Positions 15,040-60,900 of a DNA stretch of 64,000 nucleotides are shown piece by piece. Below the pieces are notes generated by a model, which was given only the letters and a program-made list of their open reading frames with translations, ran no database searches and was not told the origin of the DNA. The stretch is from Balanoglossus misakiensis. Taxonomy: Eukaryota > Animalia > Hemichordata. The translations under genes were made by a program, and so were the position numbers. Position 1 is the first letter of the stretch; each line of letters begins with the position of its first letter. The DNA lies in contig CM082579.2 in the NCBI GenBank assembly GCA_040954595.2, positions 12,277,834 to 12,341,833 of the forward strand, read 5' to 3'.

Positions 15040-18000
15040 CTTTCTTTAATCCAATGTTGCAAATTCAATAAGTCGTCACCATGACTTATCAAAAAGCTCA
15101 TATCATCAGCATACGCTGATAAGCGACAACGTTTCCCAATATTAGAAGTTCAAAGCCACTCATATTACTCTGAGTACGAACTTTATGGAGGAAAGGCTCA
15201 ATACAGATTGAGTACGACTGGCCCGACAAAGAGCACCCCTGCCGGATACCGCGATTAAAAGAGATTGGTGCAGTAAGCCCATTATTTAGCTTCAAAAGAC
15301 TTTCAGTGCTAGAGTATAGGAGCTTTATATAACTAATAAGATTGGGGCCAAATCCAAAAGCCTGCAAAGTCTTAATCAAATAATTGTGATGGACCCGGTC
15401 AAAAGCCTTTTCCTGATCTAACGAAAAAACACCGATCATTAGCATATCGAACAACACCATGAATAAGATTGATATTCTCAGAAATATGCCTGCCAGGGAT
15501 ACAGTAACGTTGATCTATATCAATAGTATCTGATAAAACAGTCCAAGGCGAATTTACAAGGCTTCCGGTAAAATGTTGTAGACCGAACATAAGACAGAAA
15601 AAGAGGCCAATTGTTAATAGTGTACTTTCACCCGTTTAAAGTGAACCGACACCTTCCTTGTAGAGAGATTCTAATAAAATCTTTGTGAAAAACATGAGTG
15701 ATTTGCGTCGTTTTTATTCACTTTCACTTATCGCGCAGCAGCGTAGCGTCGATCTCGATATGCAGTGTGACGTCACCAACTACGCACCAGTAGCAGACGC
15801 CACCGTGCGCACGCTAACGTACACAGACAGTTGACATGGCTGGCTCCCTCGCAAGTGGGAGCAAAAACAGAGTTGGCAAAAACACGGTGAAAGGTTTTAT
15901 AAGAGTTCCCGACCCTTCGGTGGACAGTCAAAATGCAAATCGACCTGAAAAATGGGTGTCAAACATTGGCATATTATTTCGGTGCTTATTGCTGAGACAG
16001 ATGATACTTTTGCTTCGGAAATGTTCGTGTTCAACTAGGTCCTATATCGTGAAGCATATTGCAAAAAAAAAAAAAAAAAACTACACAGCAAAAATTGTCG
16101 AAACAGCCGGGGCTCCTGATTTCCTTTGATCACCATATGACGAAACCGAATTTTTGGCATTGTAAATCAAAACTCTGATCGGAAGAAAGTAGTGTGGCGG
16201 AAATAGGCCTACTAGTGAACACTGTTTTTGTCGCGTACCCAAGCTGTGAATGCATCGCAAAACCATTTCCAAAGACAAAAACGACCACGCGATATGGAGT
16301 TTTCAAACGAAGATATCGTCGGATTTTTGTACGAACCCGAATACAGCAGCGATGAGATGGTAGGCGACTCAAGTGAAACTGATTCCAATAGTACAGCGGC
16401 AAGTGTAGACAGCAAAGACGATCGAGAAGAGTGATCGGCTTCGTCTTTCGTCACGCTCATGCTCATGGTGTAGCTGCGCTGCGGTAAATGCGAAGTTATT
16501 TCTACTGTCAAGGAATGCCGGTGCTGCCATGAAATAGATGTCTTGACAAGGCAGTTAGATAAAGACTTGAATGACATATCACGAAGCCATGCGATAATTT
16601 TTGACATTTAGTCACCCATGTCATAATAGGGACCCTCGTGATTTCCCAAAAGAATAGAAAGTAAGCCTATTGTCACTCTCGCGAAAATGTCTACCACACG
16701 TGTCTACCATCCTTTACGTTGATCAACAGCTGTGAAAAGATGCGGCTTTGTTGATCAAAGGGAGGCAGAAACTCCGATTGTCATGTTTCGAGTACATCTG
16801 TGGTGCTTCCAGATGGTAGAGGTGGTCGTTTTTGTCTTTGGAAATGGTTTTGCGATGCATTAACAGCTTGGGTACGCGACAAAAACAGTGTTCACTAGTA
16901 GGCCTATTTCCGCCACACTACTTTCTTCCGATCAGAGTTTTGATTTACAGTGCCAAAAATACGTCCATGGTCATATGGTGATCAAAGGAAATCAGGAGCC
17001 CCGGCTGTTTCGACAATTTTTGCTGTGTAGTTTTTTTTTTTTTTTTTTTGCAATATGCTTCACGATATAGGGCCTAGTTGAACACGAACATTTCCGAAAC
17101 AAAAATATCATCTGTCTCAGCAATAAGCACCGAAATAATATGCCAATGTTTGACACCCATTTTTCAGGTCGATTTGCATTTTGACTGTCCACCGAAGGGT
17201 CGGGAACTCTTATAAAACCTTTCACCGTGTTTTTGCCAACTCTGTTTTTGCTCCCACTTGCGAGGCAGCCAGCCATGTCAACTGTCTGTGTACGTTAGCG
17301 TGCGCACGGTGGCGTCTGCTACTGGTGCGTAGTTGGTGACGTCACACTGCATATCGAGATCGACGCTACGCTGCTGCGCGATAAGTGAAAGTGAATAAAA
17401 ACGACGCAAATCACTCATGTTTTTCACAAAGATTTTATTAGAATCTCTCTACAAGGAAGGTGTCGGTTCACTTTAAGGGATTAGAGTTAAATAGCTCTTC
17501 TACAAGATAACGGAAGAGTACCATCCTGAACTGCAGCAGTGAATACATCGAAATAGTCTTTGCCAAGAATGGACCTTTTTTATAAAACTCTGCCGGGAGA
17601 CCAACAATACCCGGGAAGCGTCAGCGATTGCGTAACTTCCTCAAAAGAATGAGGCAATTCGGCAAATCTTTTAAAAAGTAACTCCTGAGCTTCAATCGAA
17701 ACAGCATCTGGAGAGTAAAGCTCAGAGAAGAAATCTCTCGCTAATTGATTCGAGGTGGATTTTTTGTGAGTTAACCATTCATCATGAAATTATTCACACC
17801 TTTGTGGCGTTCCAGATCATAAAAGAATGACGTAGAACTGTCACTTTCATTCAGCTGTTTGAACCTTGACCTAACAACAGCGCCTTGCACCTGCGAATGA
17901 ATAATCTTGTCCAATAGATTTCTCTTTTCAACAAAAGTGGCAAACGCTTCACAACCTCTCCCGTGAGTGATTTCAATTTTTGTATTTCACGTAATTCACA

Positions 18001-18928: not shown

Positions 18929-21900
18929 ATGGGAAACAAAGGGAGCAAAAAGGTGGAGACCAAAACGGTGGAGACCAAAAAGGTGGAGACCAAAAAGGTG
19001 GAGACCAAAAAGGTAACGTGTAAGCTAGTATCTCTATTTCATAAATAATTCGTTTATATCAGTGGATTTGTCTTTTTATGCTATTACATTGCTCTGGTCG
19101 GGCCGTGTCAACATTCGCGTTTTACTCGTCAGTGACAGGGCAATTACATCACTGGTACCTTCCTCAGCTGAACGAAAAAAATATTGCCGATTAATATACA
19201 GCTATCATAATTTCTATGTCAATTGATTCGAAAAGCGCGTGTTACTTTTCCAAACATTCTGCTCAATTTATCAACTTTTATTTCTTGTCATACGCCTTTC
19301 CCACCATTAAATTACCTGGTCTTAGGCTATACAGTCAACTTTGAACATGTTCCGTTACAACAAACTTTTAACAGTATAAATCAATGCGTGTATTGTTGAC
19401 AACAGAAGTTAAATTCTGATTTAAACATGCCATAAGACCTACATAGACCGACACAGGTTCATAATCCCCCTAATCCCCTAAATGACAGAAAAAATTGCAA
19501 TTTCCCAGATTAAAACAACAGTGGCATAGATGTGAACGTCTTAGTCAACACATGAAGGAAATTGTTCAGAAAGATGTGGTGTGTTGAGTTTGAGTGCAAA
19601 ACCTAGGCACGACACCCTTCTGTATTATCATGATAATCACACGCCACAAGTAGAGTTTGTGCTGAGTTTATTTCCCATGAGTTCAATGGTCAACGATAAG
19701 AATACTGACTGCACACAGCTACATGTAAATGGGTTACATTTTGATATTCAATGTTTGAGTTTAATCCGAAAATGTTGCGCGACTTCATTGGCTAAGCCCT
19801 TTACTATCGTACATGACTCATATTACACATGAAGTCTTGAAAAATATGACTCAAGACTTGAAAATTTAGCATAAAATAGAGGTCCTGGTACACTTGTTAC
19901 AATTATGTTTCGACGTCATCTGACCCCTGTATACCTGTGGTATGAGGCATCAATTTGCACAGTACTATCTTGAAATTGTAACGGAATTTTAGCAGAGGAA
20001 CAGAATGGATTGAGAAAGGATTGGTCTTGTCAACACCATAGTTATGTTCTGACTACATATCATCAGTGGTAATACAATGAATGAGAATATATCAGTGTTG
20101 CTTTATTTCTTGATCTACATAAGGCTTTTGTCTTTGTAGATAGAGTTTGTTTACTTTACAAATAATTGATGAATGGTATTATATGGTAAAATTGATTCCT
20201 CCATAAAAGCGGTTTATAGCAATACAAACGCACCGGTAAGTCCCAAGTGTAATCTATCAGCTACATTTCATACAACTACAGTTTTTAGACAAGGAGAAAA
20301 GAATCACTAACTCTATTTTCTTTTTTTAGTTCATGCACGAAGCGGTAAACTTATAGTTTAGGTCGGTGTTAGGCTATTCCTAGTTCATCAGCAATTTCAG
20401 CGTCGTTTGGGAAGTGATCATTGTGCAATTGGGCAATAAAGTTCTACAAAACAAATCGATTTGGTCACAATTCACTTTTTGGAAATTTCTCTGGGGTACT
20501 CAGAATAAATCGGAGTCCGAAGTCAACATGGGGAGCATGTGTCGTCTCACACTTTCATGCTAAACGTAGGGCTGTACCATTATTTACAGAAACGAATGGA
20601 TTAAACTACTACATTTGTATTTATTTACTCTCACACAGTTTAGACTGCCATTTCCTGCCATTTTGAAGTCACCTGACAAAGATTCCATTCTTACAACCTT
20701 TGAACCTTATTCTACCATATATGGAATAAATCATTAAATCACTCATTCCCTAAATAGAAACTATGGGATTTTATGGAATCAGTGCCTGTGTGAACGTGTG
20801 TCCATCCACATCAAAAACTTGGAAACCGCTCATGTTATCACGTTGATATTTGGTATGCAGTTGCAAACTGGCTGTAGATGGGAGTTTGTTCAAATTAGCT
20901 GGGATAACGTGAAATTGGTCAAAACTCAGAATATCAACAACTGCTGGGCAAATTGCTTTGTAAATTAAATTGGTATACATGTACAGATAAGTTTGTTTAT
21001 TTCTCAAAAAACAGAGTCACAGCCCATCATTTCCATAAGCGTACAAAATCAAAGAAAGAAACATATAGACACGTGACAATGAAAAATTATTAAGTTTTAT
21101 TTGCAAGTCAGACACAGGAAAAGCCATTGCTCTGATATTAGAGCTTCATCCCTTCTCAACATTGCTTTATGAATGAAAACAGATAAATTAAATAAAGTAG
21201 CAGGGTTCTTTGGCGAAAGCAGTGAAATGAGTTTTTCAGTTGTCGAGTGGACATTTACATATGCTGGCAACAACTTTCAAGTTCAATATACATCGGACAG
21301 AACATTAAGACATGTATTTCATTCTCCTGTATAATAGATTACGTTTCTCACAAAAGTAACAAGTTCTTCGTCTTTGGTCTGTGTGGGCATGTCTTCCGGT
21401 TTCAATAACGAGGCGATGGTTTGAGCAGCGAAATTTTGACAGAGAAAATTTATAGTTCAGTACTTGGCCATGCTGTATGTAGCACTCTGGTTCAAGTTGC
21501 GACTTGAAGAAAGAATAAAATCTAATTCGCGGGGATTAACTAACTACAACATGCCACTCTTGCCTATAATAGTATTTTAGTCTTTGATAAAAGACAGATA
21601 AAAACAAACTGTGATTTCCCACTTGCTGTTCCAGCCACACCTCCCCAAAAGCATATCTCATGAGAATGCCTTTTATTTTGTAACCCAATTAACTTTGCTT
21701 GATTCATCCAAGTTTTCAACATTTTGTAACATGCCTTCGGAAAACGAGAATCACTCATTTCTGTAAATTTAAGCCAGTAAGAAATGCATTGTTTCATGTA
21801 TGTACAGCCTAATGGGAATCTCCCACGTTCACCCAAAATGGCTTCATTATTCACACCACTCCCAAGACCAAGTAAAAATCTACATAACTGAAAATGAATA

Positions 21901-24900
21901 GCGTCGATAACAGGAGAGTATATGTATGTACATGTACCTCATGACAACCTCGCTGATTATATTTCAACAAATGTTTTTGCACAGATTCATTTTTATAATT
22001 GAAAGAACTGAATGGGCTTGGCTCCATATTAATGAAGTAAATATTACATGTTAGATCATGTGTGATTATCTTATGACCTGTGTGTTTCCTGTAAAATTTC
22101 TCCTCATTTGCATGTTTCATAAATTATTGTCATTAGTGCAGTCTATGATAGTCCCCCCCCCCCCCCTTCACACATGCAGGTGTTGACGTGGCTGTTATGG
22201 ACGTTTTGGCTGATAATGTCTATGTTGGCAATGCCTATTAATATTCACTCTCTGCAAATTTACCTTCACACTGAAAGTGACAAACTAGAGATTGGCTATT
22301 GCCTTAGTTACAAACATCAGTAGAGTCAAGGTGATCAGTACTGGCACTCAATATCAGATTATTGTTTGTGGTCTGACAGTACTACGAGAAAATTAAGCAC
22401 TGTCATGTCATGATCATTTAAAGACTCTATATTTTTCCATTTTTATTAAACTAAAAGGAACCAGTAAACACAACGCAGAAAACAATCGACGAAAAAAAGC
22501 AGCAAATGAAAAAGCTCTTCGATGTAACATTTCAAGAAGAAAATAAGAAATTGCAACGCTTAAGGGCAGAGAAACTCAAGGAAATTCAAAAGGTAGGGTA
22601 TATAAATTCTTGATAAGTTTTTTCACTTTAGTATGTCATATTTTAACAACTTGTGTGATAGAAACACATGGCGCGATTATGCAGCAGAGTACTAGTATTT
22701 GCACGAGTGCTGGTACTGTGTTCTGCGGCCCTTCCTCACCCTCGAAATCACTCATGTCAGGGTAGCAAACTAAACCACCAGCACAAATGCAAATATCCCT
22801 GGTAAATTGAGTTTGTAAGATCTAGCTGTGAGGTTTTGGGGCTCATGTGCCACACATATGAGTTAATACCATACCAATTCTGTCTGTTCGTCTGTCCATC
22901 CCTCAGTGTTCCTGTTTGTTAGCCCAATATCTCCAAACCGCCTTAATGGATTCAAGTTAAATTTGGTACACAGGTTCAAGTTTGGAATGGCAATATAGTA
23001 ATTATAATGGGGGCATCTATATTTACGTATAGTTAACAGGGGTTACGATGAAACTGACTTAAAATATTGATCTGACAGATATCTGACTGTGTTATGAGAC
23101 ATTTATATGTGTCATGTAAATGAATCCACTAGAAGATGAGGGTTACTTATATGTGGGTCAAACCAGATATACATGTATGTTCTTTCAAATATTGTTTCTG
23201 TGATTGGTTGAAAGTTCAAGGCATGTTCATCAATGCTATATTGCAACCCTCTGTCATTCCATTTTCTTTCTGGATGGTGTGGGGTGGTGTGGGACTTGGT
23301 AAATGTTGTCATTCTGCACAACGCCTTCATGAGTCTATTGTAAATGTTTCAGCCCTAGTCCGAACTTAAGCGCAGGGGTAATCCATAATGGCATATGAAA
23401 TTATTCAAAAGTAGTTTGGCCACTGTAGAGGCTTTCTGATTTGTGGTTGGTGTATCTAAAGAAATGGTCTGTAAAAACTAGTACATTTTTCTACACCACC
23501 CTTGGATGGCTCCAGTGTTATAGGAAGGCTACACACAAAATCCATATGCTCAGAAGTTCTGAAATTATCTTGTGATGGAGGGTCCATTCAGCTGTTTTCT
23601 GCAGACAACATAGCTCACATGTGTCACTCCATGTTTTTACCTAAAGATATATTCGAGAACAATAGAATCATGAACAAATGATCTCAAGTGTTTTTTCACA
23701 TCCTTGGTTACCCATTTGGTGATTAGTATTAACACATCTTTCCGCTAGATGCTCGTTGAATGTTCTTGATAATGATATCAATTTTTTTCAGCACTGTTAA
23801 GAAGTGTTAGTCTCCAAGACATGGCATCATCAACCTCTGAAATGTAGCAGGGGCATTCAGCAGACCAAATGCATTCTGTTTGTGTCAAATAATCCAATTA
23901 GGGAAGTAAATGATGTCTTGGCTTTGTTACTTTCTTCCTCTTCCACCTGCCAGTCGCCAGCAGTCAAATCTGAGGTGTGGAAATATTTGGCACCTCCCAA
24001 TGCCTCATGGGCATCAATAATGCACGGGGATACAGCGCATGTTTAATTGCCGACAATCTATGCAGATACTGAGACTACCATCTCACTGTTGAACTACAAC
24101 AACAGAGCAGTTAGGGCTCTTTCTTAGCCTTATTACACCAGATGCTTCCATGTGTTTCCTGGCTTCCTGCTACTGTATGCGATGTGTAGGTTGATTGAAT
24201 GGTCGGTTGTCAATCAGTGGTCTGTCCATAGTTGAGTACATTTTAGAAAAAAAACACATCAGTATTCTTCGATACATTTGAAAGTTCTTGCAAATTTTCG
24301 TGACGTGACTCTCCACTGCAACATTAGACATGTGTGATAGGGGAAAAACAACAGTTCATCCCTTAGGAGCATTTTGACTCTTACTCTGGTTTAGGGCCTG
24401 GTCAGAATTAACAGGGGGGGGGGGGGCTAGTGCGATTCGAAATCTGAATGCATGAAGAACACTGACCATCCACTGATTTCTTGCACAAAAAATGCTGACC
24501 CTCCCCCTTCTCCAGGAACAAAATCAAGTGACTCTCCCCACAGTACGTGAAATATCCCATGATTCATTCTGATTTGTACAATCAGAGATTACTCAGTCAA
24601 ACCAGGCAAAGTTCACATGTGTAGAGAAAATTGTAGACCACTAAACAGCGCTCCTATGAAAAGAATTTGAAACTGATGTATTCCCTCATCAGTGGGTATT
24701 CTGTGTTAGCAGACATTGTAAACCGAAAATTGAAGGGGGTGGGTTTGGGAGGGGGTGTCCCCCTGCCAAGTTAGAAAATTTTATAAAATACAGAGCTCAA
24801 AGGTGCATTTTAATGAACCAAAAAGCAAATTAACTCAACTACCTGTATGTTGGGAAGGGAAAATTTAACCTTCGCCGCTCAAAGTTAGCATGGGGGGGGG

Positions 24901-27900
24901 GGGGGGGGGGCAAGTCCCCTGACCTGGGACGTTAGATAAACCAGTCAATGATTGAAAGGTGTTGATGAATGAAGGGGGTTGGTGTGGGAGGGGGTGTCCC
25001 CCTCCCACATTAGAAAAAAATGAATTATGAAGGGTTCAAAACTGTATATTTGAGGACTCAAAACATTTTCGGTGTCATCCTTGCACAAAAATTAGTGACC
25101 CTCCTCCTGACTCGTGCCCAAAATGCAGCGGCCCTCCCCCGAACTGTTGCATGAAAAATGGTGACCCTCCCCCAATCGCACCAGCCCCCCCCCCTGTTAA
25201 TTCTGACCAGGTCCTTACATGAAATGTATATGCGGCCTGTTCACGTCTTTGCCTTGGTGTTGGTCTTCATGGCACCCTCAACTCATTCTGACTAATTCTG
25301 ATCACATTTGCTCCAATTAGCAAGGGCACCTCTTGCTGATATTCAGTAGTAGGTACAACAAACACAGGTCCGCTCAAAGAAGGTAAGGTCCAACCTGATT
25401 AAACTATGATGAGGAACATCTTTACCACTAGCACCTTGAATAAGGACATCTGTAGAATCAATCTCCATTTTATTCATATAACTATCTCACTGCTTTCTTT
25501 TTAGCCTATTGTGGAAGTGTTTTATAAAGACACCACTGAGGCAGACAAACGTGAGGCAAAAGAGAAAGCACAGCGGTCATTTTCAATGCAGGTTGAAGAA
25601 GACCGGAAACGATTGCAAGAAACTTTACAAAAGCAGGCACGTGAAATAGATATGGGATTCGAAAAACTGAAAGAAAGGAAAAGGAAAATTGTTACCTATG
25701 AATTTGGTGATCGGAATGGCCTAAGCTCATTTGGTAAATTAAACACAGAACGCATGAAGAAACAAGGAGCTGTCCGCATAGGTGTGTTTGGGCCAGCAGG
25801 CTCTGGAAAAAGCAGTTTCGTTAATTCTTGTGATCAAACCATTCGAGGAGTATATAAAGGTATGCTTTTTGGATATTTAAGCTGCTCCAGAGACATTGAA
25901 TTGAACACTATTTTATATGGCTCGCCAATATGACATGAAAATAGGCCCAATAACCGCTTTCCTGTATAATAACACATTCGTCTGTCTTGTGAAATTACAT
26001 ACTTGCATCTGTTTATGTATGTGTGTGATATTTTACACATCTTAGCACTTAATATACATCTGGCACCGAGAACAATATAATTTAGTGTGCACTAAAAAAA
26101 CGTACAGAACGGAACGCGTGTTAAATAAGTCTTAAGGCACCCCAACTCACCGTGTAAATGTATGCACTGTTATGACAGTTTCAAGACACCCCCACTCTAA
26201 TGCATGTAAACAAAAAAGAAAGATGGCTGCTCACTGTTTCAGCTGAGCGGTTTACGAACGATTGTATCCGCATTTTGGGCATTTTCAAAGCCAAATAATA
26301 TGGAACACAAGAACTAACCGAGATGTAAGATGTTTAATAATAGGGTTATTACGAAAATACTGCAAAGTATGCACTCGGACATTAGCGCAGCGCATCGTGC
26401 GATACCAGGCGCTAATGTCCTCGTGCATACTTTGCGGTATTTTCGAATAACCTCATAATATCAAATCCACATAATACCTTTAAAATGAAAAAAAAATAAA
26501 TACTGGAGAATACAGAGGTATATATTGGGGTATCAAGTTGTTCACAAATTCCTAGGGCAAAACTATGAGAGAGGCTTCCTTTAGAAAAGCATGCTCAGAT
26601 GTCTATATTTTCCGAAACTGTCTGCCATTTTTAAGAAGTGTCGACTGCTAGTCATTTTTCTTACTAACTTAGAGGGTCCAAATGCTGCTTAAAGCAGCGA
26701 GAATTTAGGTGAAATACACAGACATACAGATATGAGGTACATTGATACCATGTTCTGTATTTGCTCTAGGTTCGGCTGACGCCAACCCAGAAGGTGGAGA
26801 AGGTACAATTCGACTTTGTGACTACCTACATGGAGAATGGCATTTCGTACTTGTTGACTCACGTGGATTTGGTTCTTACAAGCAAGTTGAAATAGATGCC
26901 TTTCATGATATATTATATGGTAAAATAAAAATGGGCGAACAAGTAGAATATGGCGTCCAGCAAAGCCAACATGCAGACACAGTCTATAACACAGAAGACC
27001 ATATCCATGCTGTTATATTCGTTGTAAACGGAATAGACCCACACCTTGCCAATTTGGTTGGTTATTTGAATCCAATAAGGGAATATCTGAAAAAAAAGGG
27101 TAATTTGCTTCATTGTATTTGACAAAACCAATACGCTATACCATAGGCCTACATTGTACTTTAAACCACTGGGTAGACTATTAAATTGGTGGCTATTCAC
27201 GTTATGAGTGACAACAGGGTAAACTGATTGCTCACTGAAAATATCTGATGTCCGAATAGATCGACACGAACACTGTCAATTTATTATTTGAATAATCCTT
27301 ATCGAACACCTGCCCACTAAATGTGCTTAACCATTGCTATAAGTGTATAACCTAAATATCCTAGTTTACAAACGGTTCTGCCAGAATGACGCATTTTAAA
27401 TGAGTTTTCTTCTCAATCAAAATTATTTTTCTAATTTTTACACTGTGCCACTGACTGGAATCAACACTGACTTGACAAAGAAAGACATACATTCTCTAGC
27501 CTGTAGAAAAAAACATCAAAATGCAATTAATTATAGAAGGCCTCTGAAGGGTTCTGTTATGACAAAACGTTTTCTTGGTTGTATATCGAATGTAGTATAG
27601 AATAGAATAGACTAGACTAGAAAAGACTTACAAACATCTATTTCAGATTTAAGATGTTAATTGCATGTACCCCTTCTTTTAAAAACAGGTATTGCTCCTG
27701 TAACTGTAATAACGCATGTGGACAAGATAGAAGACAAAGATAAACATGCTATCATGGTAAATCGCATTTCTTATTTGTCTACAATATATAAAGGTAAAAT
27801 TTGGATTTATAGGAAAAAAAATCTTCATATTCTGTTTTGTTCAAAATGTATAGTTTGTAATGATATGAGAAGTTATAATGGTTAATGTTGTATTGGTGCT

Positions 27901-45699: not shown

Positions 45700-46092
45700 A
45701 GATGATATTGTTCCTCCCTCGCATTCGAGGATGAGCTTGACTCCATATCAGGTCGATGGTCAGTTGTTGTGGGTCCGGAGATGACTTATGAGGCCGATCC
45801 GGGCCTGTATGGCACGACCACACACGGGACAGGTGTGGGTGGGTGCTGCGTTGGAAGTGTTGGCAGCTCGAGCTTTGCGTGCTTCACGTTTCTGCTGCGC
45901 TTCTGTCGTGCATCGCTTCTCTGCTGCGCGGGCGCCAGTGGAGACTTTGCTACGCCAGGTTGGGCGGTTGGTAGCAAGCTGCTCCCAAGTGCTGATGTTA
46001 TTATCCATGTCCTTGAGGGACGCTTTGAGGCTGTCCTTAAAGCGTTCCTTCTGTCCCCCAACTGAGCGCTTTGTCTGCCTTTGCAAAGAGAA
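45700..46092 (-). mobile_element. RTE-clade LINE 3' end, copy 2 (longer)
   Basis: KRSVGGQKERFKDSLKASLK...WEQLATNRPTWR...HTCPVCGRAIQARIGLISHLRTH, with the same flanks as copy 1. Confidence 0.9.
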
Positions 46093-47870
46093 CCGGGTAT
46101 ATTTGTTGTGATTTATCAGATAGGTAAACAGGCATATATAAGTCGTGATAGCATCAATCATTTTGCTGTCCGATCTCTTTGATGATATTCCTGTTTCTTT
46201 AATTTCAGGTCGTTATTACATGAATTTGTTTGGCATTTTAGACATGTGGTACGTACAGTTCAGCTTAAACCACTTATAAATGCTGATCAGGTCTTTTTTA
46301 TCTCATCTTTGAACTATTTTAATTATTGTCGTTTTATTAGAACAATGCCTAGTTGTTCAGACCTAATCTATGTTTGCCAAGTGGAGGCATTCTGTATCAG
46401 TTGAACTAGATTATCCAGATGCTCGATAAACATTTGAATATGCTTTCATTTTAGAATGCAAATATGTAGCCACTGACCGTGCAGTTGCATAGAAGACTAG
46501 GAATGTGTTTTCCAGTTGATGTGGTTTTTGTGAGTGTTTTTTATTTGATTTGGAAAGCCGTTAATCACGCGGTGTTTCTAAATAAAGTTTTACAATGAAT
46601 ATGTGTGAAAAAAATACCTTTGGCGAGTAAAAAATCAAATTAAGTGAAATGAAGGATATGCTATGAGCTGAGTAGAGCGGCATTGTTGACTATCGTTCCT
46701 GATCAAATAGTTTACTTAGAAACTGTCTTATTCACGTTACATGTTGAACAGAGTGAAATATTTTATTGTTTTTTTTAATGAAAAACATTAATAAATGTAA
46801 ATTCTGTTGTATAATTACGCCAAACTGAGTACATTTTTTCTTTGAAAATATGTTCAGTGATAAAATAATGACCCATAACTAGTATTCGATGAAATTTAGG
46901 TGAAATGAGGATTTTTATCCTGCTTTCATATTAGGATGCAAATTTTGTTTGAGGATTTCATCGCTTGAACTTAAGGGGCGCTCGTCAACAGATCGTACTC
47001 ATAGTGGACGCAATTGTATTAAAAGACATGAACACAATTTTATTATTTGAAACATAAGCGAATTTGTTTTAGTTTAAAAGCCTTTCCAACCTGCTGGGTT
47101 TGCTATTGGTTCATGGAGCTTTGACAGAAAAAAATGTCCAGAATTGGGTTTTTGATGAAAATGTTATGCAGATGGTCGTTTTATTCCACTTTCGTTTTAG
47201 GTTGCAAATAGGTAGCAAGTGATACGTCCGCCATTACAGAGAAAACTACGCATGGATTTTGATAGGTATTGATCAGTTTGCTGTCTGTTACCAAAAGACA
47301 AGTTGCATGTTAGTGTGTCAAAGTTGAGTAAATGTTGTATAAAGGTGTTGGGTTTAGACAGTTTGGAAGTAAATAAGTGTATCATCAACAGATGTCAATG
47401 ATGACTTAATTTTGTATTAAAGCGATTGTCTTTGAGGATTTAAGGGGCGCTCATCAGCAGATCATACCCACAGTGGATGCACTTGTAAAAGACACGAACG
47501 CAATTTTAATAGTTGAAACATTAGCGAATTTGATGCGGTTTATCTGTTAAGGAAACAAACAGTGAGTCCCTGTGGGATTAACCTGTTCAGGTGGTAAGCA
47601 CATTAATCAGTTTGCTGTCTGTTACCAGAAGACAAGTTGCACGTAACTGTGTCGAAGTTGAGTAATTTTTTTATACAGATGTTGAGGATTTTTTTCTGAT
47701 TTAACTAAGAGGGCGCTAATCACCCAATCGTACTCACACCCAATCATTCTCATATCAGACACATTGATAAAAGACATGAATGCAATTTAAAAAGTACCGT
47801 AATATATGAAACAGTGTCATTCAACCAAATTTTAAATTAATCGCGAATTTTGAGGTTTAATTTTGTGGAG

Positions 47871-50055: not shown

Positions 50056-52665
50056 TTAACAAATAAAAAAAACGGTGATTATAGTTTAACGACATTAAGA
50101 TCGAAAAAGAATGCCAAGTTCTCTGTGCAAAGGCAGGCATATTAATTCTATTTATTTGCATCATAAAATGAAAGAATAATAACAAATACATATATGCAAC
50201 AAATTTGTGTAAACACCAATTTCTTGCCATTTTTTTCTGTCAAACTGCATGGACTTTTGGTAAACAAAGCAAGCTGAAAAGGTTAAATCAACTTAAACAA
50301 ATTCTCCAATGATTCAACTATTAAAATTGCGTTCGTGTCTTTTACAAGTGCGTCCACTTTGGGTATGGTCTGCTGATGAGCGTTACTTAAATCCTCATAG
50401 ACAACTGTTTTAATACAAAATTAAGTCGCCATTGACATCTGTTGATGATACACTTATTTACTTCCAAACTATCTAAACTCAACACCTTTATACAAAAATT
50501 ACTCAACTATGACACAGTTACGTGCAACTTGTCTTCTGGTAACAGACAGCAAAATGATTAATGTGCTCACCACCTGAACAGGTTCATCCCACAGTGACTC
50601 ACTGTTTGTTTCCTTAATAGATAAACCGCATCAATACCTAACAAAATACACGCCTAGTTTTCTGTGTAATGGTAGACGTATCAATTGCTATTTATTTGCA
50701 ACCTAAAATGAAAGCGGAATAAAAAGACCATTTGCACAACATTTACATCATAAACCTAATTCTGGCCATTTTTATCAAAACTCCACGGACTAATAGCAAA
50801 CCCAGCAGGTTGAAAAGGCTTTTAAACTAAAACAAATTCGCTTATGTATCAAATATTAAAATTGTGTTCATGTCTTTTAATGCCATTGTGTCCTCTATGA
50901 GTACGATCTGTTGACGAGCGCCCCCTTAAGTTCAAGCGACGAAAGCCTTAAACCATTGCGGCCCAAACGCCGCCCTCTCTGGGCAGTATTTCTGTGGCGC
51001 GTTTCAATAGCTTATGAATAATTAATTAGCGCGATCATGGCGGTCGCTCAGCGGAGCTGAAACCTGAATACAGTGAAATTCGGTAAGTGTTTCTTGTCAT
51101 TTTTTAAAGATCTACTGCACCATACATCATAGTGTTCACAGTAAACGAAACAAAATTATTATTTCATCTGTACAATTCATATTGAATCACTGAAATAACT
51201 TTAAAAATAACTGTTGCTGAGGGGTCAGGAGAGTAGCATAATCGAGGATAACCTTAATAAGATCAGTGCTGCTAAAAGACTAGTAAAACGGGCTAAAACC
51301 CGTCTTGCTAGACTTGAGCAGAGGAATAATAATGTGAGACAGGAGTTGGGTGCTAGGACCTACAGTATAAAGGTACAGTGAGTTTAAACGATTGAATAAA
51401 TTTAATTTGTCAGTTTTACTCAAATAGAATTCAATCATATGCACAGTTAGCAAATGTTAGAGGAACATCGTCTGTTTTTATCATGCGAATTTTGAATTTC
51501 TTGGGATTACTAGCTTGCTCCTATAATCACAATGAAATGCTCAAAATTTAGGCTGATAAATCCACTAACCTCTTCATGTACATTTTTTGTGTAATCTTGC
51601 AGAGAAAACTAGATGCTTTGCAACCCAGGTGGATTCACAAGAATTCAGAAGTGTGTAAAGATAACAGTGAGGTTTTGAAATTATCACGGCGTGAACAGTA
51701 TGAACGTAGATGTAAAACCTTGTCAGCCGCCACATCTATTCATGTATCAACAACCGATACCAGTTTAGCCACTGGTGTAGGTAATTTTACCAAATTGAAA
51801 CCTTCAAAAGCTGCACTTGATGGTTTGTGGTTCACCCTCATCAACTCTGCCAAACCTGAACAGATTGAAACCTATTTGAAAACATCACCTCAAATCAGAG
51901 AGAAATTAGTAGACAAATCTATTGATCAATTTGAAAAAAAGTGAAAGCAATTTAATAAGGAGTGTCAGAGTTCTGTATGAGGGTGGAGTGCTACCAAAAC
52001 GCAAATACACTTGTCTGAGGCTGAGTGAACTGCAAACATCATCTAAAATACAAAATCCAAGTAGAGCAATGCAGTTTCACTTTGGCTGCAGAATACCAAG
52101 ATTACTGACATACAACAAAGTTGTACGCTAAACAGTATAGAAAACATTTTCCAATTTCCGAAAAACCTCTTTTTTACATTATTACTGCTGAAAAAGTTAG
52201 AAATTTATGAAAATATTCCTTATTCTTTGCCAATTTCTAATGAAAAAATTACATAAAGGTATTCTTAGTCTCTTTCCTGCAGCTGTACAGCAGGAAAAAT
52301 GCATTTTGTCATATTTTGGCTTTAAACTCAAATTAAAATTTATCTGTGAAAAAACTGAGTCTCCTTCAAAGCCACGTACATGACAGTCCTTTTGATTTTT
52401 TTCTAATGAAATTTTGTCTCCATGTTTATCATGAGTAATATTTCTATTGAAAATTTGCAAGTGTGTGAATTGTTTGTAAAATTTCGCCAGAAAAAACAAT
52501 AGCATCAAAAAGTAAATCTGAAACCCAATATTTATTACAAGAATTGTTAGATTAATATCCGTATCACACAAATCCGTTGGATTTCGTATGAATTTTAGGA
52601 AATAAGCACTGCTAATTGACAAATCCATATTTTGCAGCTGAAATACTTGGAAAAGAGTCAGTGGC

Positions 52666-52977
52666 ATGTGAGAGCTTGGAAATTTCCAAGCACTGACAAG
52701 GGTCAGTGGTCGGAAATTTCCAGACACTCAGGGAATGTGAGAGCTTAGAAATTTCCAAGCACTGACAAGGGTCAGTGGTCGGAAATTTCCGGACACTCAG
52801 GGAATGTGAGAGCCTGGAAATTTCCAAGCACTGACAAGGGTCAGTGGTCGGAAATTTCCAGACACTCAGGGAATGTGAGAGCTTAGAAATTTCCAAGCAC
52901 TGACAAGGGTCAGTGGTCGGAAATTTCCAGACACTCAGGGAATGTGAGAGCCTGGAAATTTCCAAGCACTGACAGGG
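52666..52977 (+). repeat. 69-bp minisatellite, left array (~4.5 units)
   Basis: Unit GAATGTGAGAGC(C/T)T(A/G)GAAATTTCCAAGCACTGACAAGGGTCAGTGGTCGGAAATTTCC(A/G)GACACTCAGG, period 69 (52733 to 52802). Confidence 0.95.
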
Positions 52978-53046
52978 TCGTGGTAGTCCCCCGTACAGGT
53001 CTGCGTTCTCCCGGCGTTTAATACATGACTTCCACCACATCTCTGC

Positions 53047-53440
53047 AAGGCTCCATGGACAAAACTGATTCGTCTGAGATCCGGATCCGGACAGCAGCTT
53101 TTCGGCCGAGATTCGATTTTATCGGGGGGAATCTTTCCCCCGTCTACCCACAAATGACTCCAAATATGATGTAATTAACTTCCGAGCCGCTCGCTTTCTG
53201 ATTTTCTCTTGTGTTTACCTGTTGAGATCGCCATATTGAATACAGTGAGGTTATCTCAATGGGTAAACACAAAAGTTTCAGAAAGCGAGCGGTTCGGATG
53301 TTAGAAGAAGTCAATCGTGGAGTCGGTTATAACCGGTTAGTAGACAGGGAAAGGATATTCTCCCGATAAAATCGAATTTCAGCGAAAAGCTCTGGTACGG
53401 ATCTGGACCGCAGATGCAACAGGTTTGTCTAAGGAGCCTT
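53047..53440. mobile_element. Imperfect palindromic MITE-like core inside the nested element
   Basis: Paired segments AAGGCTCC/GGAGCCTT, ATTCGATTTTATCGGG/CCCGATAAAATCGAAT and CCGCTCGCTTTCTGA/TCAGAAAGCGAGCGG. Confidence 0.7.
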
Positions 53441-53889
53441 AGCGTCACAATGTTCATGACAGGCTTCGCCTACCAACTCCTCTGAGTTAGCCCATACACT
53501 AGTTGTTTATTGGGAATTGGTATTGTTTATCTGACATAATTGTTCTTTCTACTCTGTATACAAAGTCACAACTTCACAACTACCAAATGCTATTGTTCTT
53601 GAATTATGCAGTGTTACCAAATGTCACAGTTCAAACCACTGTTTATAAAGAAGTATTGGCCATCCCGCCTCTCTCTTCATTCCGAACCTATTCCCAAGTG
53701 TACGCGGTACATTTGTTGGTGCCGAGACCAGGATGTCGGGCATGGAGAGAGAGAAGAACAGCAGAAGAGGCCACCGCAGTCAAATGACCAATCTCATCCG
53801 TAGGGTTGAAGATATAAACACAGGCGCAGTTCCTCAACAGATCGTTTTCCTAAAGGCCATAATTTGAAACATGATAGAGAAACTCAAGA

Positions 53890-54525
53890 TTTCCAAGCAC
53901 TGACCCTGTCAATGCTTGGAAATTTCCAGGCTCTCACATTCCCCGAGTGTCTGGAAATTTCCGACCACTGACCCTGTCAGTGCTTGGAAATTTCTAAGCT
54001 CTCACATTCCCTGAGTGTCTGGAAATTTCCGACCACTGACCCTTGTCAGTGCTTGGAAATTTCCAGGCTCTCACATTCCCTGAGTGTCCGGAAATTTCCG
54101 ACCACTGACCCTTGTCAGTGCTTGGAAATTTCCAGGCTCTCACATTCCCTGAGTGTCTGGAAATTTCCGACCACTGACCCTTGTCAGTGCTTGGAAATTT
54201 CTAAGCTCTCACATTCCCTGAGTGTCTGGAAATTTCCGACCACTGACCCTTGTCAGTGCTTGGAAATTTCTAAGCTCTCACATTCCCTGAGTGTCTGGAA
54301 ATTTCCGACCACTGACCCTTGTCAGTGCTTGGAAATTTCCAGGCTCTCACATTCCCTGAGTGTCTGGAAATTTCCGACCACTGACCCTTGTCAGTGCTTG
54401 GAAATTTCCAGGCTCTCACATTCCCTGAGTGTCCGGAAATTTCCGACCACTGACCCTTGTCAGTGCTTGGAAATTTCCATGCTCTCACATTCCCTGAGTG
54501 TCTGGAAATTTCCAGACACTGACCC
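53890..54525 (-). repeat. 69-bp minisatellite, right array (~9 units, inverted relative to the left)
   Basis: Reverse complement of the left unit. It explains the spurious 23-aa repeat ORFs. Confidence 0.95.
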
Positions 54526-57282
54526 TTCTGGAGTGACTAGCAATTTTTGCAAATTGTACTATTAATTGAATTCATAATTTAATTATTAGTTTTTTTCAAT
54601 GAAATATTCAAATCCATACAACCCAAAGATGGCTCCTTCATTATTTCTATGGAAATTTCACAGTTTATTCTTTTCTTTCTGCACACTCGCAAACATCTTG
54701 AAAATAATCATAGAAAAATATCGAAATATATTGTACTGTGAACAAAACACTAATTTCCTTGAAAAAAGTTTAAAAAACGGCTACTTTTCGGAAATTGGAA
54801 AATGTTTTCTATACTGTTGCTATGTTAGTAATCTTGATATTGGTACTCTTGAACCCATTCTGACAGCAGAAGGGAAACAGGTAGGTTTGAAACGTAACAT
54901 TGAAGAGTTACTTGTTAAGATTGCCAATCTGTATTTACAAATGAAATCAACCCAGCCAGACATTCTTAACTGGTTTGATAGACATGAAGGTAACTTCCAG
55001 ATTAGTATAGGTGCTGATGGTGCACCATTTGGAAAACATGGCCAAGCTACTGCCTGGTTGGTCAGTTTTTTTTAATGTTGGACATCGTGTTGCAAGCCCA
55101 GATGATAATTTTCTACTGTTGGGGGCAAATCTCAAAGAAGATGATCCGATTATGATTGACTATGCACATTCATTATCAAAAGAGCTGGATTGTATCCAGA
55201 GACGTAAATACAATGTTGGCAATCTTTGTGTGACTTTCCAAGTTTCGCTCTTGCCTTTTGATCAGAAAGGTTTAGCTTCAATGTCTGGGGAGCTTTCCAA
55301 TGCTGCACGGTACTTTAGCTCTTTTGCTAATGTTTCAAAGTCAGATAGAGATTGTATTGGAGCAGATATTGGTCCAGGTAAAACATGGCAAGAATGGTCA
55401 TATGACAAACGCATTAAAGATGTTGAAGCTGTGGAGAAATTCAAATCGCAACCAAAAAATAGAGATGGCAAGCCAAAAACTGTGCTGCCAAAAGTCACTA
55501 AATTTATAGCCAGTAGAAAATCCAGACAGGAATGTGTACCCCCTCTTGGTCGATTTATCGACTGTGCTAAAGTTGAACCATTGCACATGAAAAACAATGC
55601 ATGGCAGTACTATTTCCAGATGTTGTTGATAGATGCAGTTGCTAACACTTCACAAACAGATGTTGATAAGGGAGTTAAGATTGAAAATCTCCCAAAGGAG
55701 TCTTGTCTATACAAATTCCTGTCTGCATTAAAATACCAAGTGAGAGCTGGAAAACTGTACAACAAAATTGGAAAGTTCTTTAGTGAAAACAATGCAAAAT
55801 CACTTTCTCAAATAAGTGCTGTTTATCGCTTTACTGGGGAAGAGTCCCGTAAGCTAGCATGGAAATTCATGTCACTGATTAAGACACTCATGGGTGATAA
55901 AGATAGTGTAATAAAGCGGCGAGCTCGATTGGCTCTTTTCACATATCTTGGGTTGATGCTGAGGGATATTACCTTGCTCTTTTCAAGGATTAATCTGAGT
56001 GAATGGGATTTACTTGTCCTGAAACAGAAATATACATGGTACTTTTACCTCCATTCACTATTTTTTTATGTAAATAATACTGTTTGGCATATTGGATACG
56101 CAGTACCTAAACATGCAGCAAGTGTGTATCAGCAATTCAAACTTGGTTTGGGGTTGAATACTATGGAAGGTCGAGAAGCAAAACATCTGCGTCTTCTTGA
56201 ATTGAGTAAGAATTTCACTCCTCAGAACAGGTGGACCCTCATATTCCGCCATAAATACACAATGCTGTTTTGGCTAAGAGAAAGAAATCCAGAAGCAGAC
56301 AAATATAGGCGGGCCAATCTAGTTCAGTATGAACTTAAAGAAAGAGAAAAATATATACCCAGTCTGTACTATGACAGTGCAGGTTACTGTATGTGTGGTA
56401 ACATGAAAGATGAAGCAGTGTCTGCATGTAAAATTTGTAATGACCCAGTTATGGCTGAAATAAAACAAGCAGCAGTGTCTGGCAAGCTGAGTAATAAACT
56501 GAAGAAAATTGTTCTGTGAAGTGTTATTGCCCTTCTGTGCAAAATGTTTCCTGTTTCAGTGTTTTTAACTTACCGTGTTGAAATGTTGTGAATGTCAAAT
56601 TGAAATGAATGATATTATTAACATGTATTAAACTGGAATTAAACTCTGCCACAGTTCTGTGTTCACAACTGTTACAACAGATGCATGTCAGGCCATTGTA
56701 ACAAAACGGTATATATGCAACATCATGAACTTCAGTATACTCACAGTGTACATAAACATGTCATGATTCTGATACAACTGCATGTTATCTGTACTAACAC
56801 AAACCTTAAATGCAGGGTTAATGTGAAATTCTATTACAGTCTAAATGAATTGATTTGAAAGGTTTGTGTCTTAAGTCTATCATATAACAATAATATTGAA
56901 TATAATTATAAGATTTCCTTGCTAAATAATTAACGATAATCAGAATACATTAATTTAATTTAGTTAAAATCACAATAAGTTAACTTTCAAATCCCATGAA
57001 TTGTATATATCAAATTGAATGATTTTATATTTATTGAATGCTGAGAAAGTTAAATGCAATTTATAATGAAATTCATGACAATTCCTTGTGCTTCTGCTGT
57101 ATTGCATGTAATGTTGATTGTTGGAATTGAATAAAGACAATACTACTTCATTTTCAATCTACTGTTTTTATTTCTTAATTAATGAGAACACAACACCGAC
57201 AAACTGTATATATTGACTGAAAGTGTCAAGAATATTGGACAGAAGGCCAATTTTGCATTAGACTTGCAAAGTTACTGATGTT

Positions 57283-57936
57283 CTAGTTCTCTGAGTGCAT
57301 TGGAATGCTGTGTTTATTCCAGGCTCCAAAGCAAAAGTTGACCACAACAGATTCCCTGTTCATGTAGTATTTGACAATACACGGCTTTGTTTCTGTGCAT
57401 ATGACAGCCACTCGCTTTCCTTTGACCACTCTCGCCAGCACATTCTCCTTATCTTCGGGTCCGAGATTTCTGTCAGCACAGCAACCTCTCCGCAGGACGT
57501 AAGTCAGCTTCAATAGGTTGGTAAAGGTCAAGGTTACGATGGCCTTCGACGTCTTCTCATGGATCCCAAAACTATTCCGAGTGGCGTCATGATGAAATAC
57601 AGCAAACACTTCCTTGGGCATTTGTCTAGAAAAGCCGCTTTTCCAAGGCGATCTCCACGAAGGTGAGGCTGACAGGCGTGCGTGGAAACAACGCAGCCAG
57701 TGACCCATTTCACGTTGGAAAATAGGGAATACCGCAACATCTCGATAACGAATTTTGTCTTTTGTAATCTTGTCGTTCCTCAGTAGAACCCTTTTGGCTG
57801 AATCGGACAATTCATCAAACAGGGAATGTACATGTATAACATCCAACATACATTTTCGACGCAGAATTAATGACTTAGCAGCTCGTAATTTGCGCTGTAT
57901 GATTTTCTCCGTATCAACCAACACGGCCGCCGCCGT
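57283..57936 (-). CDS. Unknown basic ~215-aa protein, convergent partner gene of the RAG1-like transposase
   Basis: An intron-less open frame inside the element, starting ~75 bp from its right end. The context CAAG-ACG-GCG-GCG-GCC looks like CAAGATGGCGGCG with ATG changed to ACG. No kelch or PHD pattern is visible. Confidence 0.6.
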   Translation of the reverse strand, partial: TAAAVLVDTEKIIQRKLRAAKSLILRRKCMLDVIHVHSLFDELSDSAKRVLLRNDKITKDKIRYRDVAVFPIFQREMGHWLRCFHARLSASPSWRSPWKSGFSRQMPKEVFAVFHHDATRNSFGIHEKTSKAIVTLTFTNLLKLTYVLRRGCCADRNLGPEDKENVLARVVKGKRVAVICTETKPCIVKYYMNRESVVVNFCFGAWNKHSIPMHSEN

Positions 57937-60900
57937 CTTGGAAAAAGCGTTGCTACGGTGATGGCGGCAATCGCGCTTCGCAGAATACTGCTCAAACTAC
58001 AGTGGCTCTGGCCTTTTGCATCCTAATATGAAAGCAGGATAAAACAACTCATTTTATCTAAATTTCTTCAAATTCAGTTATGGGCCATAATTCGCATTAC
58101 ATGTTGAACAAAGTGAAATATTTGATTGATTTTTAAAAAAATGAAATAAATTAATAAATGTAAATTCTGTTGTATAATTACGCCAAACTGAGTACAATTG
58201 TTGTCATTGAAAATATGTTCAGTGAGACAATAATGACCCATAACTAGTATTCGATGAAATTTAGGTATTTTGTTAGGTATTGATGCAGTTTATCTGTTAA
58301 GAAAACAAACAGTGAGTTACTGTGGGATGAACCTGTTCAGGTGGTGAGCACATTAATCAGTTTGCTGTCTGTTACCAGATAACAAGTTGCACGTAACTGT
58401 GTCGAAGTTGAGTAATTTTTTTATACAGATGTTGAGGATTTTTTGTCACGGATTTAACTAAGAGGGTGCTAATCACCCAATGGTACTCACACCCAATCAT
58501 TCTCATATCAGACTCACTGATAAAAGACATGAATGCAATTTAATAACTACCGTAATATATGGAACAGTGTCATTCAACCGAATTTTTAATTAATCGCGAA
58601 TTTTGAGGTTTAATTTTGTAAAGATGTGGAGAAAAATTCGGAGGTATTGTTTTCACACATATTCATTGTAAAAATTTTAATTAGACACCGCACACTGAGA
58701 CAAGGTATATCCAAAGTAGTGTGAATTGTATTGATAAATGCGATGAACGCCTTTCCAAATCAAACAAAAACACTTTTATAAAGCACTCAAAATAGAAAAA
58801 CACATTCCTAGTCTTCTATGCAACTGCGCGGTCAGTGGCTACTTATTTGCATTTTAAAATGAAAGCATGTTAAAAATGTTTATGTGGCATCTAGATAACC
58901 TAGTTCAACTTATACAGGATGTTAAGTGGTTTAAGTTGAACAAATTCATGTGATAACCTGAAAAAAAAAGAAAACTCTTATTGTTTACTTATAGTTTAAC
59001 CACATCAATATCTAAAAAGAACACATGCATAATTCTCCGTGCAAAGACAGACATATCAATTGCTATTTATTTGCATCCTAAAATAGAAGCAGAAAAATAC
59101 TTAATTACTAAACATTTACATCAAACACCAATTCCAGTCCTTATTCTCTGTCGACGCTTAATGCACCAACAGCAAATCAAGCAAATTGGCAAGATATATC
59201 AACTATGAAATATCAAGTCATACACTTCTACATATTTTTCCACTGAACTCACTTATTTATCAACTAATTTTTCTCCATACCTTTACACAATTAAACATCA
59301 AGATTCGCGATTTATTAAACATTCGGTTTATTGTCACTAATCCATATATTAGTTTTTAAATTGCACTCATGTCTTTTACCAGTGTGTCTGATACGAGAAT
59401 GATTGGGTTTGAGTACGATCGGCTGATTAGCGCCCTCTAAGTTCAATCGGATAAATCCTCAACACCTTTATTTATAAAACTCACTCGACCTTGACTCACT
59501 ACTCTAGCTATTTGTAGCACACCAGCTCAGTGAACAGGTTAATCAAACTCTGACTGTTTGTTTCTTTAACAGATAAACCACATAAACACAAACGATTATA
59601 TAAAATGAAAATGATTAAAATAGTTCAAAGATGAGATAAAAAGACCTGATCTACATTTGCAAGTGTATTAAGCTGAACTTTCCATGCCACATGTCTAAAG
59701 AGTCAAACAAATTCATGAGATAACCACCTGAACAAATAAAAACTGATATTTTTTACTCACATTTAAACCGCATCAAAGTCTAAAGTAACGTACCTAATTC
59801 TCTGTGCAAATGTGGACATTGATGTATATTTGCATCCAAAATTGACACCAGGATAAAAACTCCCTGGACATATAGCAAACCAATTAAATTCAAAAGGTTT
59901 ACAAACTAAAACAAATTCGCTAATGTTTCGAATTTTTTAATTGTGTTCGTGTCTTTTACCAGTGCGTCCACTATGAGTGCGATTCGCTGACGAGCGCCCC
60001 TTAAGTTCGAGCGGAAAAGTCTTCAAACACGACAGCTAAAAAATAACTCATCATTGACAATTGTTTATGACTCACTTGGTAACATGCATCCTGTTAAAAG
60101 TGTCAGATAGCAAAGTGATTCATGTGATCACCATCTGAATTAGTTAAGCCTACTGTCTGTGTACTTAACAGACAAACCACATCGATATCTAAAAACACAT
60201 ACCTAGTTCTCTGTGCAAAGCCAGACGTATCAATCGCTATGTTTGTATGCATACTGTGCATACATGACATTGCCGGTTGTCATGCTGATAGCGCCCTCTA
60301 TGCCCAAGTGAGAATTCCATCAAAATAGAAAGCTTTAATCAAAAGATCACTCAACATAGATAATTATTCATTTTTCATGGTCTGTTTTTGTCTTTATATA
60401 CTGGAACATCAGATTTTGCTTCATTTGAGATTTACATTTCTTCATTTTTGAAGAAAATATAGCAAGAGACTGAAAGAATATCCAGAGCAATCTGTAATAC
60501 AGGTTTTTGCATGCCAAGCCAGTCACCACCCACTCACTCACTCCACTTCACCATATCCATGCTGGTATATTTGTAGAATATTTCGTAAGTACACTGCTGC
60601 CAAACATCAGGTAGAAGATCGCCCTCTATTTTCAAACATGAATAATCTCAAGCTTTGACAGCTATAGTTGCCCAACAATTCAGCAATTAGTCTGTCAAAC
60701 ATTACATTACTCATCACTTGAGTCGAAATTTATGCTGGAATGGGGAAGTTAGTCTTGCTCCAGACTGTGATACTGAAATGGGCGTCCTTATTATGTATAG
60801 AACGTCCCGTGGACATGACGCTAATCATTCTATTCCTTATTGACCGGCACAGCAACTGTCATAGAGTCTATATGTGGGAGTATGCACTGCACTGAACGTC

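What the first reader, a model, noticed from the sequence alone, without database searches (positions are those of the whole stretch)
57283..57936. Orphan partner protein in the RAG2 position, with a probable ATG-to-ACG start
Seen: a ~215-codon basic (K/R-rich) open frame with no stops, although the neighbouring transposase is disrupted. An in-frame CAAG-ACG-GCG-GCG lies at 57936. The protein is too short for a six-blade kelch domain and has no PHD Cys/His pattern. Inference: an accessory factor of unknown fold (DNA binding, target capture or regulation).
Basis: partly seen in the sequence, partly recalled or inferred. Interest (0 to 1): 0.7.

Follow-up and report, generated by a model that had tools for sequence, protein, structure and literature searches.

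The report
Transposon partner gene unrelated to RAG2
This is a broken copy, with a mutated start codon, of a small gene that travels tail-to-tail with a jumping-gene enzyme likely related to RAG1 (the cutter of our antibody genes); it is predicted not to fold like RAG2 and likely helps the element jump, so the RAG-like two-gene layout probably arose more than once.

Summary
Window 57936-57283 (-) is an open 217-codon basic frame (pI 10.0). Contigs of two DNA runs (one sample) read ATG at this codon, so ACG is a mutation in this copy, not a special start.

It is not an orphan. It has 61 homologues. Of 80 metagenome loci of the neighbouring transposase family, 38 carry one, always convergent (18 of 18 with 2.5 kb or more downstream). 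Gene trees are congruent (Mantel rho 0.84, 20 families) and dN/dS is mostly 0.2-0.45.

The confident model (pLDDT 91.6) is three helices plus an alpha/beta domain, not a kelch propeller, with no clear PDB match.

The element (50954-58013) belongs to a family with CAC ends and 3-bp, AT-rich target duplications. Its DDE transposase resembles Chapaev/RAG1 but lacks the C(2)C motif, so it fails the RAGL/Transib tests. This copy is dead: nested insertion, frameshifts, clipped end.

Best reading: an accessory subunit of an apparently undescribed two-gene lineage of the CACTA-Mirage-Chapaev-Transib (CMCT) clade. Function and binding are untested.

The parts
50954..58013 (.). Whole two-gene DNA transposon copy (dead), inserted in a dispersed host repeat
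   Evidence: Empty-site joint 50953 to 58015 in contigs of X1 and X2; empty paralogous repeat in the window at 47202-46864, minus strand
50954..50985 (+). Left terminus CATTGCGGCC (third base likely decayed from CAC); short imperfect match to the right end
   Evidence: the element contig aligns from 50957 with 5 unaligned letters before it
51603..56519 (+). Main exon of the DDE transposase, disrupted. Putative catalytic D 55016-18, D 55260-62, E 56175-77; C-terminal CxCG..CxxC; no C(2)C motif. The exon start is inferred from an AG acceptor
   Evidence: Profile hit 51645-56513; 61-81% identity in four pieces to a Ptychodera flava protein; invariant residues; frameshifts at 51934 and 55069 are absent from other copies
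52131..54818 (.). Nested 2,688-bp element with terminal inverted repeats and inverted 69-bp tandem arrays, 4-bp GCTA duplication; interrupts the transposase
   Evidence: Joint 52126 to 54819 in other copies
57283..57936 (-). Partner gene, one open frame of 217 codons, convergent with the transposase (the finding)
57934..57936 (-). Start codon, ACG in this copy, ATG in the high-depth contigs; lies in a family-wide ANATGGCG motif
57937..58013 (-). Right end and 5' leader of the partner gene; the last 7 bp of the terminus and the target duplication are lost in this copy
   Evidence: Contigs continue with CGTAGTG after 58013. The full terminus would lie 85 bp from the start codon; 71-132 bp in 30 related ends

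Best explanation
The ORF is the second gene of a two-gene cut-and-paste transposon family, here in a dead copy whose ATG has mutated to ACG, and its small basic product likely works as an accessory subunit that would bind the element's own DDE transposase and/or DNA during transposition, a job like that of RAG2 but with a predicted fold unlike RAG2. Shown: linkage, convergent orientation, co-inheritance, purifying selection, CAC ends, 3-bp AT-rich duplications, ATG in other copies. Predicted: three helices plus an alpha/beta domain. Inferred: transcription from a promoter inside the right end; a complex with the transposase through the conserved RR..PW, R..P..F and YG.WN..G.PQH positions; a role in end pairing or target capture.
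For: 38 of 80 transposase loci carry a homologue, all downstream on the opposite strand; 33 of 36 with 1.5 kb or more downstream, 18 of 18 with 2.5 kb or more. Trees are nearly congruent over 20 families, Mantel rho 0.84, p 1e-4. dN/dS 0.19-0.45 in most unsaturated pairs. Nine contig lengths are shared between one transposase cluster and one partner cluster. 40 of 50 family members have pI above 9. No acidic catalytic set: the best D/E columns are 31-36 of 50. Model pLDDT 91.6. Transposase D, D, E invariant; a homologue scores 0.96 to a cluster with DUF1280 (Chapaev; 16% of members) and 0.92-0.94 to RAG1_RNase_H clusters.
Against: No functional or expression data. Co-inheritance in cis fits any element-borne gene, including an anti-silencing factor. 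The partner diverges 1.9 times faster than the transposase. The 80 loci are redundant and were picked by transposase score from 271. 3 of 36 loci with 1.5 kb or more downstream lack a hit. Some pairs give high dN/dS: 1.49 for L023-L078 (6 changes), 0.60 for L007-L008, 0.47-0.65 for pairs with frameshifted L067. The transposase profile hits no RAG1 or Transib chain in PDB or Pfam, so its placement rests on language-model features, motifs and ends.
Confidence: 0.58

Rival explanations
1. The partner is element-borne but acts as a regulator: it binds the element's DNA or host chromatin factors to activate transcription or counter silencing, like CACTA TnpA or Mutator VANC proteins (recalled), and does not join the transpososome.
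For: Same linkage and selection data. Basic protein. CAC ends with 3-bp duplications are the EnSpm hallmarks (PMC12730594 passage), and EnSpm, MuDR and Harbinger carry a second regulatory protein (PMC1131882 passage).
Against: No known DNA-binding or chromatin-reader domain found. No subterminal repeat arrays were evident in the 60-bp ends aligned; longer ends were not tested.
Confidence: 0.27
2. The partner is a small enzyme (nuclease or end-processing activity) whose active site uses the conserved W, N, Q and H near its C terminus.
For: W206 47 of 50, N207 48 of 50, H214 48 of 49, Q 41 of 49.
Against: No conserved acidic or metal-binding set; no clear enzyme fold match, best Z for the alpha/beta part 5.0 or less.
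Confidence: 0.07
3. It is a captured host gene or passive cargo with no use to the element.
For: Most of the 61 homologues have no genomic context here.
Against: Fixed position 71-132 bp from the right end in 30 ends, congruent trees, multicopy clusters, dN/dS below 1.
Confidence: 0.04
4. It is a shrunken RAG2 homologue, or it is translated from a functional ACG start.
For: Same convergent position as RAG2L; ACG has A at -3 and G at +4.
Against: The model has three long helices and a mixed sheet, not a propeller; no kelch or PHD hit in 50 members; other copies read ATG.
Confidence: 0.03

Closest known systems
RAGL / ProtoRAG transposons (RAG1L-RAG2L; PMC7204232, 10.1101/2023.08.20.553239, PMC9435367, PMC4411706)
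   Same: Two convergent genes between CAC-starting ends; DDE transposase with language-model similarity to RAG1 RNase H; Cys-rich C-terminal tail; hosts include hemichordates and cnidarians.
   Different: Partner is about 210 aa, predicted alpha/beta, no kelch or PHD. TSD is 3 bp and AT-rich, not 5 bp. C(2)C is replaced by YFSSF. The tail is CxCG..CxxC, not Cx2Cx3GHx4C. No HMM hit to RAG1.
Transib
   Same: CAC ends, similar spacing of DDE motifs (by inspection against recalled motifs).
   Different: Known Transibs are single-gene with 5-bp TSD, although 3-bp exceptions with G-starting ends are reported (10.64898/2026.08.26.747230).
EnSpm/CACTA and Chapaev within the CMCT clade (PMC12730594)
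   Same: CAC..GTG ends and 3-bp TSD; the intact right end of this family reads CACTACGG; the top named Atlas cluster carries DUF1280 (Chapaev); EnSpm also has a second protein.
   Different: No hit to Transposase_21 or DUF1280 HMMs in 68 members; C(2)C absent and only one His of H(3-4)H kept; the second gene is convergent and has no Pfam-37-level family.
Pfam PF26709.1
   Same: Precomputed on five proteins found with the partner profile, two of them in the alignment.
   Different: Its name and description were not available here, so it is unknown whether Pfam links it to a transposon.

Membership tests
RAGL/ProtoRAG | Partner with six-bladed kelch propeller, usually plus PHD | tested here: not met
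   217 aa; model pLDDT 91.6 is helices plus mixed sheet; no kelch or PHD hit
RAGL/ProtoRAG | Convergent two-gene layout inside TIRs | tested here: met
   38 of 38 partner-bearing loci convergent
RAGL/ProtoRAG and Transib | 5-bp target site duplication | tested here: not met
   3 bp in 4 of 10 evaluable complete loci plus L081; none of 4-6 bp; not readable in the window copy
RAGL/ProtoRAG and Transib | Ends starting CAC | tested here: met
   Family consensus CACGCYGGG; CACTACGG in intact copies of this family. The relatives' ends were sought with a CAC pattern read off
RAGL/ProtoRAG | Transposase groups with RAG1L in a tree or superposes on RAG1 | tested here: inconclusive
   Atlas features 0.92-0.94; no HMM hit in PDB or Pfam; single-sequence model unusable, pLDDT 36.7; no RAG1 sequence on hand for a tree
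[quoted passage not shown] | DDE triad, CA..TG ends, 2-5-bp TSD | tested here: met
   D 67 of 67, D 68 of 68, E 68 of 68; ends and TSD; catalytic role inferred from conservation
CMCT clade | C(2)C and H(3-4)H motifs between second D and E | tested here: not met
   No conserved Cys pair after the second D; W338..H347 keeps one His. Hence called CMCT-like, not a member of a named superfamily
EnSpm/CACTA or Chapaev | Transposase_21 or DUF1280 domain | tested here: inconclusive
   0 of 68 members hit at E 0.1; Atlas cluster with DUF1280 in 16% of members scores 0.96
Any Repbase or Dfam family | Match to a deposited consensus | not testable with these tools
   No Repbase, Repbase Reports or Dfam library is held
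Transposase accessory subunits | Physical binding to the transposase | not tested

The most novel reading that the evidence does not exclude
An unnamed superfamily-level lineage of RAG1-fold transposons, old enough to span cnidarians and hemichordates, recruited its own obligate second subunit with a new fold, independently of RAG2. The subunit's near-invariant C-terminal WN..G.PQH motif docks on the transposase surface that lost the C(2)C zinc site and steers integration to AT-rich 3-bp targets, giving a second natural experiment in how a RAG-type cutter gains a partner.
Probability: 0.3. Interest if true: 0.78.

Novelty: new variant of a known kind. Interest (0 to 1): 0.5.

Why it matters
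Why RAG1 needs RAG2, and when a single-gene Transib gained a partner, is an open question. A widespread relative that uses an unrelated 210-aa partner in the same layout would allow a direct comparison of what a partner adds (target capture, activation, restraint). The window copy itself is dead and its ACG is an ordinary mutation; the value lies in the family. Earlier unchecked reports of this scan describe what appears to be the same family from cleaner copies in the same genome.

Tried and rejected
Word-index search with the single partner protein found nothing; the exhaustive search found 61. Pfam: no family for the window partner or main transposase frame; only scattered single-member hits in the alignments. 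PDB sequence searches: nothing significant. Fold searches of the partner model: no Foldseek match at E 0.001 in PDB or viral proteins; VIA best Z 8.1 over 62 residues of generic helical hairpin; alpha/beta part Z 5.0 or less (KICSTOR, RnlA, PilB, archaeal virus ORFs). The alpha/beta domain was not folded alone, so a new fold is not shown. Atlas search of partner homologue P0327: no usable feature hit, its model pLDDT 0.40. Single-sequence transposase model failed. No RNA holder listed. No whole genome held. No profile similarity between partner and transposase and no internal repeat. A partner-like stretch near the left end of L081 and L031 is a decayed inverted copy of the right end, not a transposase domain. 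Satellite targeting rejected: 1 of 25 flanks tandem. No relative in viral contigs; the one hit among prokaryote genomes (L081) is likely host contamination. Ten literature searches listed no paper describing this pairing; Repbase Reports and subscription journals are not covered, and the CMCT tree in the supplement of PMC12730594 was shown cut.

Full report
Observation. The minus-strand frame 57996-57283 is open for 237 codons. From the ACG at 57936 it gives 217 residues, pI 10.0, 39 K+R against 20 D+E. It faces a plus-strand transposase frame ending at 56519. The best named relative of that transposase is a Ptychodera flava protein at 79% identity; others come from Nematostella, Actinia, Actinostola and Porites at 36-39%. 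The window is therefore animal DNA, likely a hemichordate (inference). No whole genome is held.

The start codon. Contigs of two public DNA runs (one sample, one study) cover the gene. The high-depth contig in each reads A at 57935, which is ATG on the coding strand. The window differs from them at five more coding sites, three synonymous and two missense. In an alignment of the window protein and 49 of the 61 homologues, 43 of the 44 rows with a residue in that column have Met. In 30 related right ends an ANATGGCG-type motif (one mismatch allowed) lies 71-132 bp from the terminus; the window's value is 85. The motif resembles a YY1 site (recalled, not tested). The ACG is thus a point mutation in one copy. 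The runs may be another individual (they hold 51-56% of sampled words), so they show the prevailing form of the family, not this allele's history.

Not an orphan. A word-index search failed, but the exhaustive search gave 61 clusters at E up to 0.001, best 1.7e-13, the full-length ones mostly 200-250 aa and 19-31% identical. Nearly invariant positions are P97, F111, G204, W206, N207, G210 and H214. Five proteins found with the profile carry Pfam PF26709.1, a family absent from the local library and from the paper library.

Linkage. A scan with the transposase alignment (window plus 67 of the 120 listed of 204 hits) confirmed 271 stretches and kept the best 80. Of these, 38 carry a partner homologue, all downstream on the opposite strand. 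The share rises with available sequence: 38 of 47 with 1 kb or more downstream, 33 of 36 with 1.5 kb, 22 of 23 with 2 kb, 18 of 18 with 2.5 kb. The loci are redundant; 37 of them plus the window passed length filters and collapsed to 20 families. Over these the two trees are nearly congruent (Mantel rho 0.84, p 1e-4) and the partner diverges 1.9 times faster. Pairwise dN/dS of the partner, for pairs at 45-97% identity and 100 or more codons, is 0.19-0.45 for most unsaturated pairs (for example L014-L043 0.20, L010-L017 0.35, L004-L038 0.30). Exceptions are L023-L078 (1.49, six changes), L007-L008 (0.60) and pairs with frameshifted L067 (0.47-0.65); most pairs under 60% are saturated. The pairs are not independent.

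The element. Contigs join 50953 to 58015, the empty site of a dispersed host repeat; one empty paralogue lies in the window at 47202-46864. Intact copies end in CACTACGG on the right; the window copy has lost 7 terminal bases and its target duplication. It also carries a nested 2,688-bp element with a GCTA duplication, frameshifts at 51934 and 55069, and lacks about 1 kb near 51215, all relative to other copies. It is dead. Relatives end in CACGCYGGG. A 3-bp duplication flanks 4 of 10 evaluable complete loci and L081; none has 4-6 bp. The misses share one flank with other loci, as collapsed assemblies would (inference). Flanks are AT-rich: 39 of 44 have A/T at -1, and the three adjacent bases are 20% GC against 39% background.

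The transposase. D, D and E are invariant, as is a C-terminal CxCG..CxxC. The C(2)C motif that unites EnSpm, Mirage, Chapaev, Transib and RAG1 (PMC12730594, passages) is replaced by YFSSF, and one His of H(3-4)H remains. No HMM hit links it to RAG1 or Transib. Language-model features of a Nematostella homologue place it next to a cluster with DUF1280 (0.96; 16% of members) and RAG1_RNase_H clusters (0.92-0.94); DUF1280 is the Chapaev transposase (PMC3985635, passages). My own transposase model failed. It is best called CMCT-like. RAGL elements have kelch partners and 5-bp duplications (PMC7204232 and 10.1101/2023.08.20.553239, passages; PMC9435367, first half of text), and known Transibs encode one protein (PMC4411706, first quarter of text; PMC1131882, passages). 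A 2026 preprint reports 3-bp duplications in some Transibs (passages), so TSD length alone does not exclude Transib.

The partner's structure. With 50 sequences the model reaches pLDDT 91.6 and pTM 0.80: helices at 2-26, 33-54 and 69-88, then a domain of seven strands with three helices. This is not a propeller, and there is no PHD. No clear structural match was found, which does not prove a new fold.

Mechanism. Shown: the gene is a fixed, co-inherited, selected part of the element. Inferred: it is transcribed from the right end, and its basic product serves transposition. I favour a transpososome subunit (0.58) over a transcriptional or anti-silencing regulator (0.27), because it tracks the transposase across all families with enough sequence, keeps a compact aromatic and basic set of residues without a catalytic acidic set, and matches no reader or DNA-binding domain. 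These arguments are indirect; binding and expression are untested.

Novelty. Ten searches listed no description of this pairing, but Repbase could not be searched, and a Pfam family covers at least some homologues. Four unreviewed reports of this scan describe a like element from 5.5-kb copies in the same genome; sequence look-ups did not link them to this window, and they are not independent support. Verdict: a real gene, an ordinary mutated start, a dead copy of an apparently undescribed two-gene transposon lineage. Interest 0.5.

Noticed in passing
window 52131-54818: Nested non-coding-looking element with AACAGTATAG ends, 4-bp GCTA duplication and two inverted arrays of a 69-bp unit; very high depth in runs X1 and X2, so a high-copy family. 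Superfamily not determined.
   Followed up: partly
window about 33500-60100: Many degenerate copies, in both orientations, of a dispersed repeat that is the target site of the element; one empty paralogue at 47202-46864.
   Followed up: partly
window 51213-51219: Other copies hold 996 further bases here, likely including part of the first transposase exon; relatives have a conserved upstream exon with an RFPIG.Y motif.
   Followed up: partly
L081:2668-11209: Complete 8.5-kb element with ATA duplication, inside a 294-bp satellite, in a contig filed under a bacterial metagenome-assembled genome; likely animal host contamination.
   Followed up: partly
L081:3253-3594 and L031:84-775: Decayed inverted copy of the partner's 5' coding region near the left end, suggesting past homogenisation of the two ends over several hundred bases.
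   Followed up: partly
window 6437-8706 (-), 15098-15514 (-), 21564-21938 (-), 45760-46212 (-): Frames that look like fragments of non-LTR retrotransposons (reverse transcriptase-like motifs, judged by eye).
   Followed up: no
window 25505-25933 (-) and 26736-27122 (+): Exon-like frames with a GxxGxGKS P-loop and GTPase-like stretches, on opposite strands; possibly pieces of a host GTPase gene or pseudogene.
   Followed up: no
protein P0225 (558 aa): Partner domain at residues 354-557 of a longer metagenome gene call; true fusion or read-through not checked.
   Followed up: no
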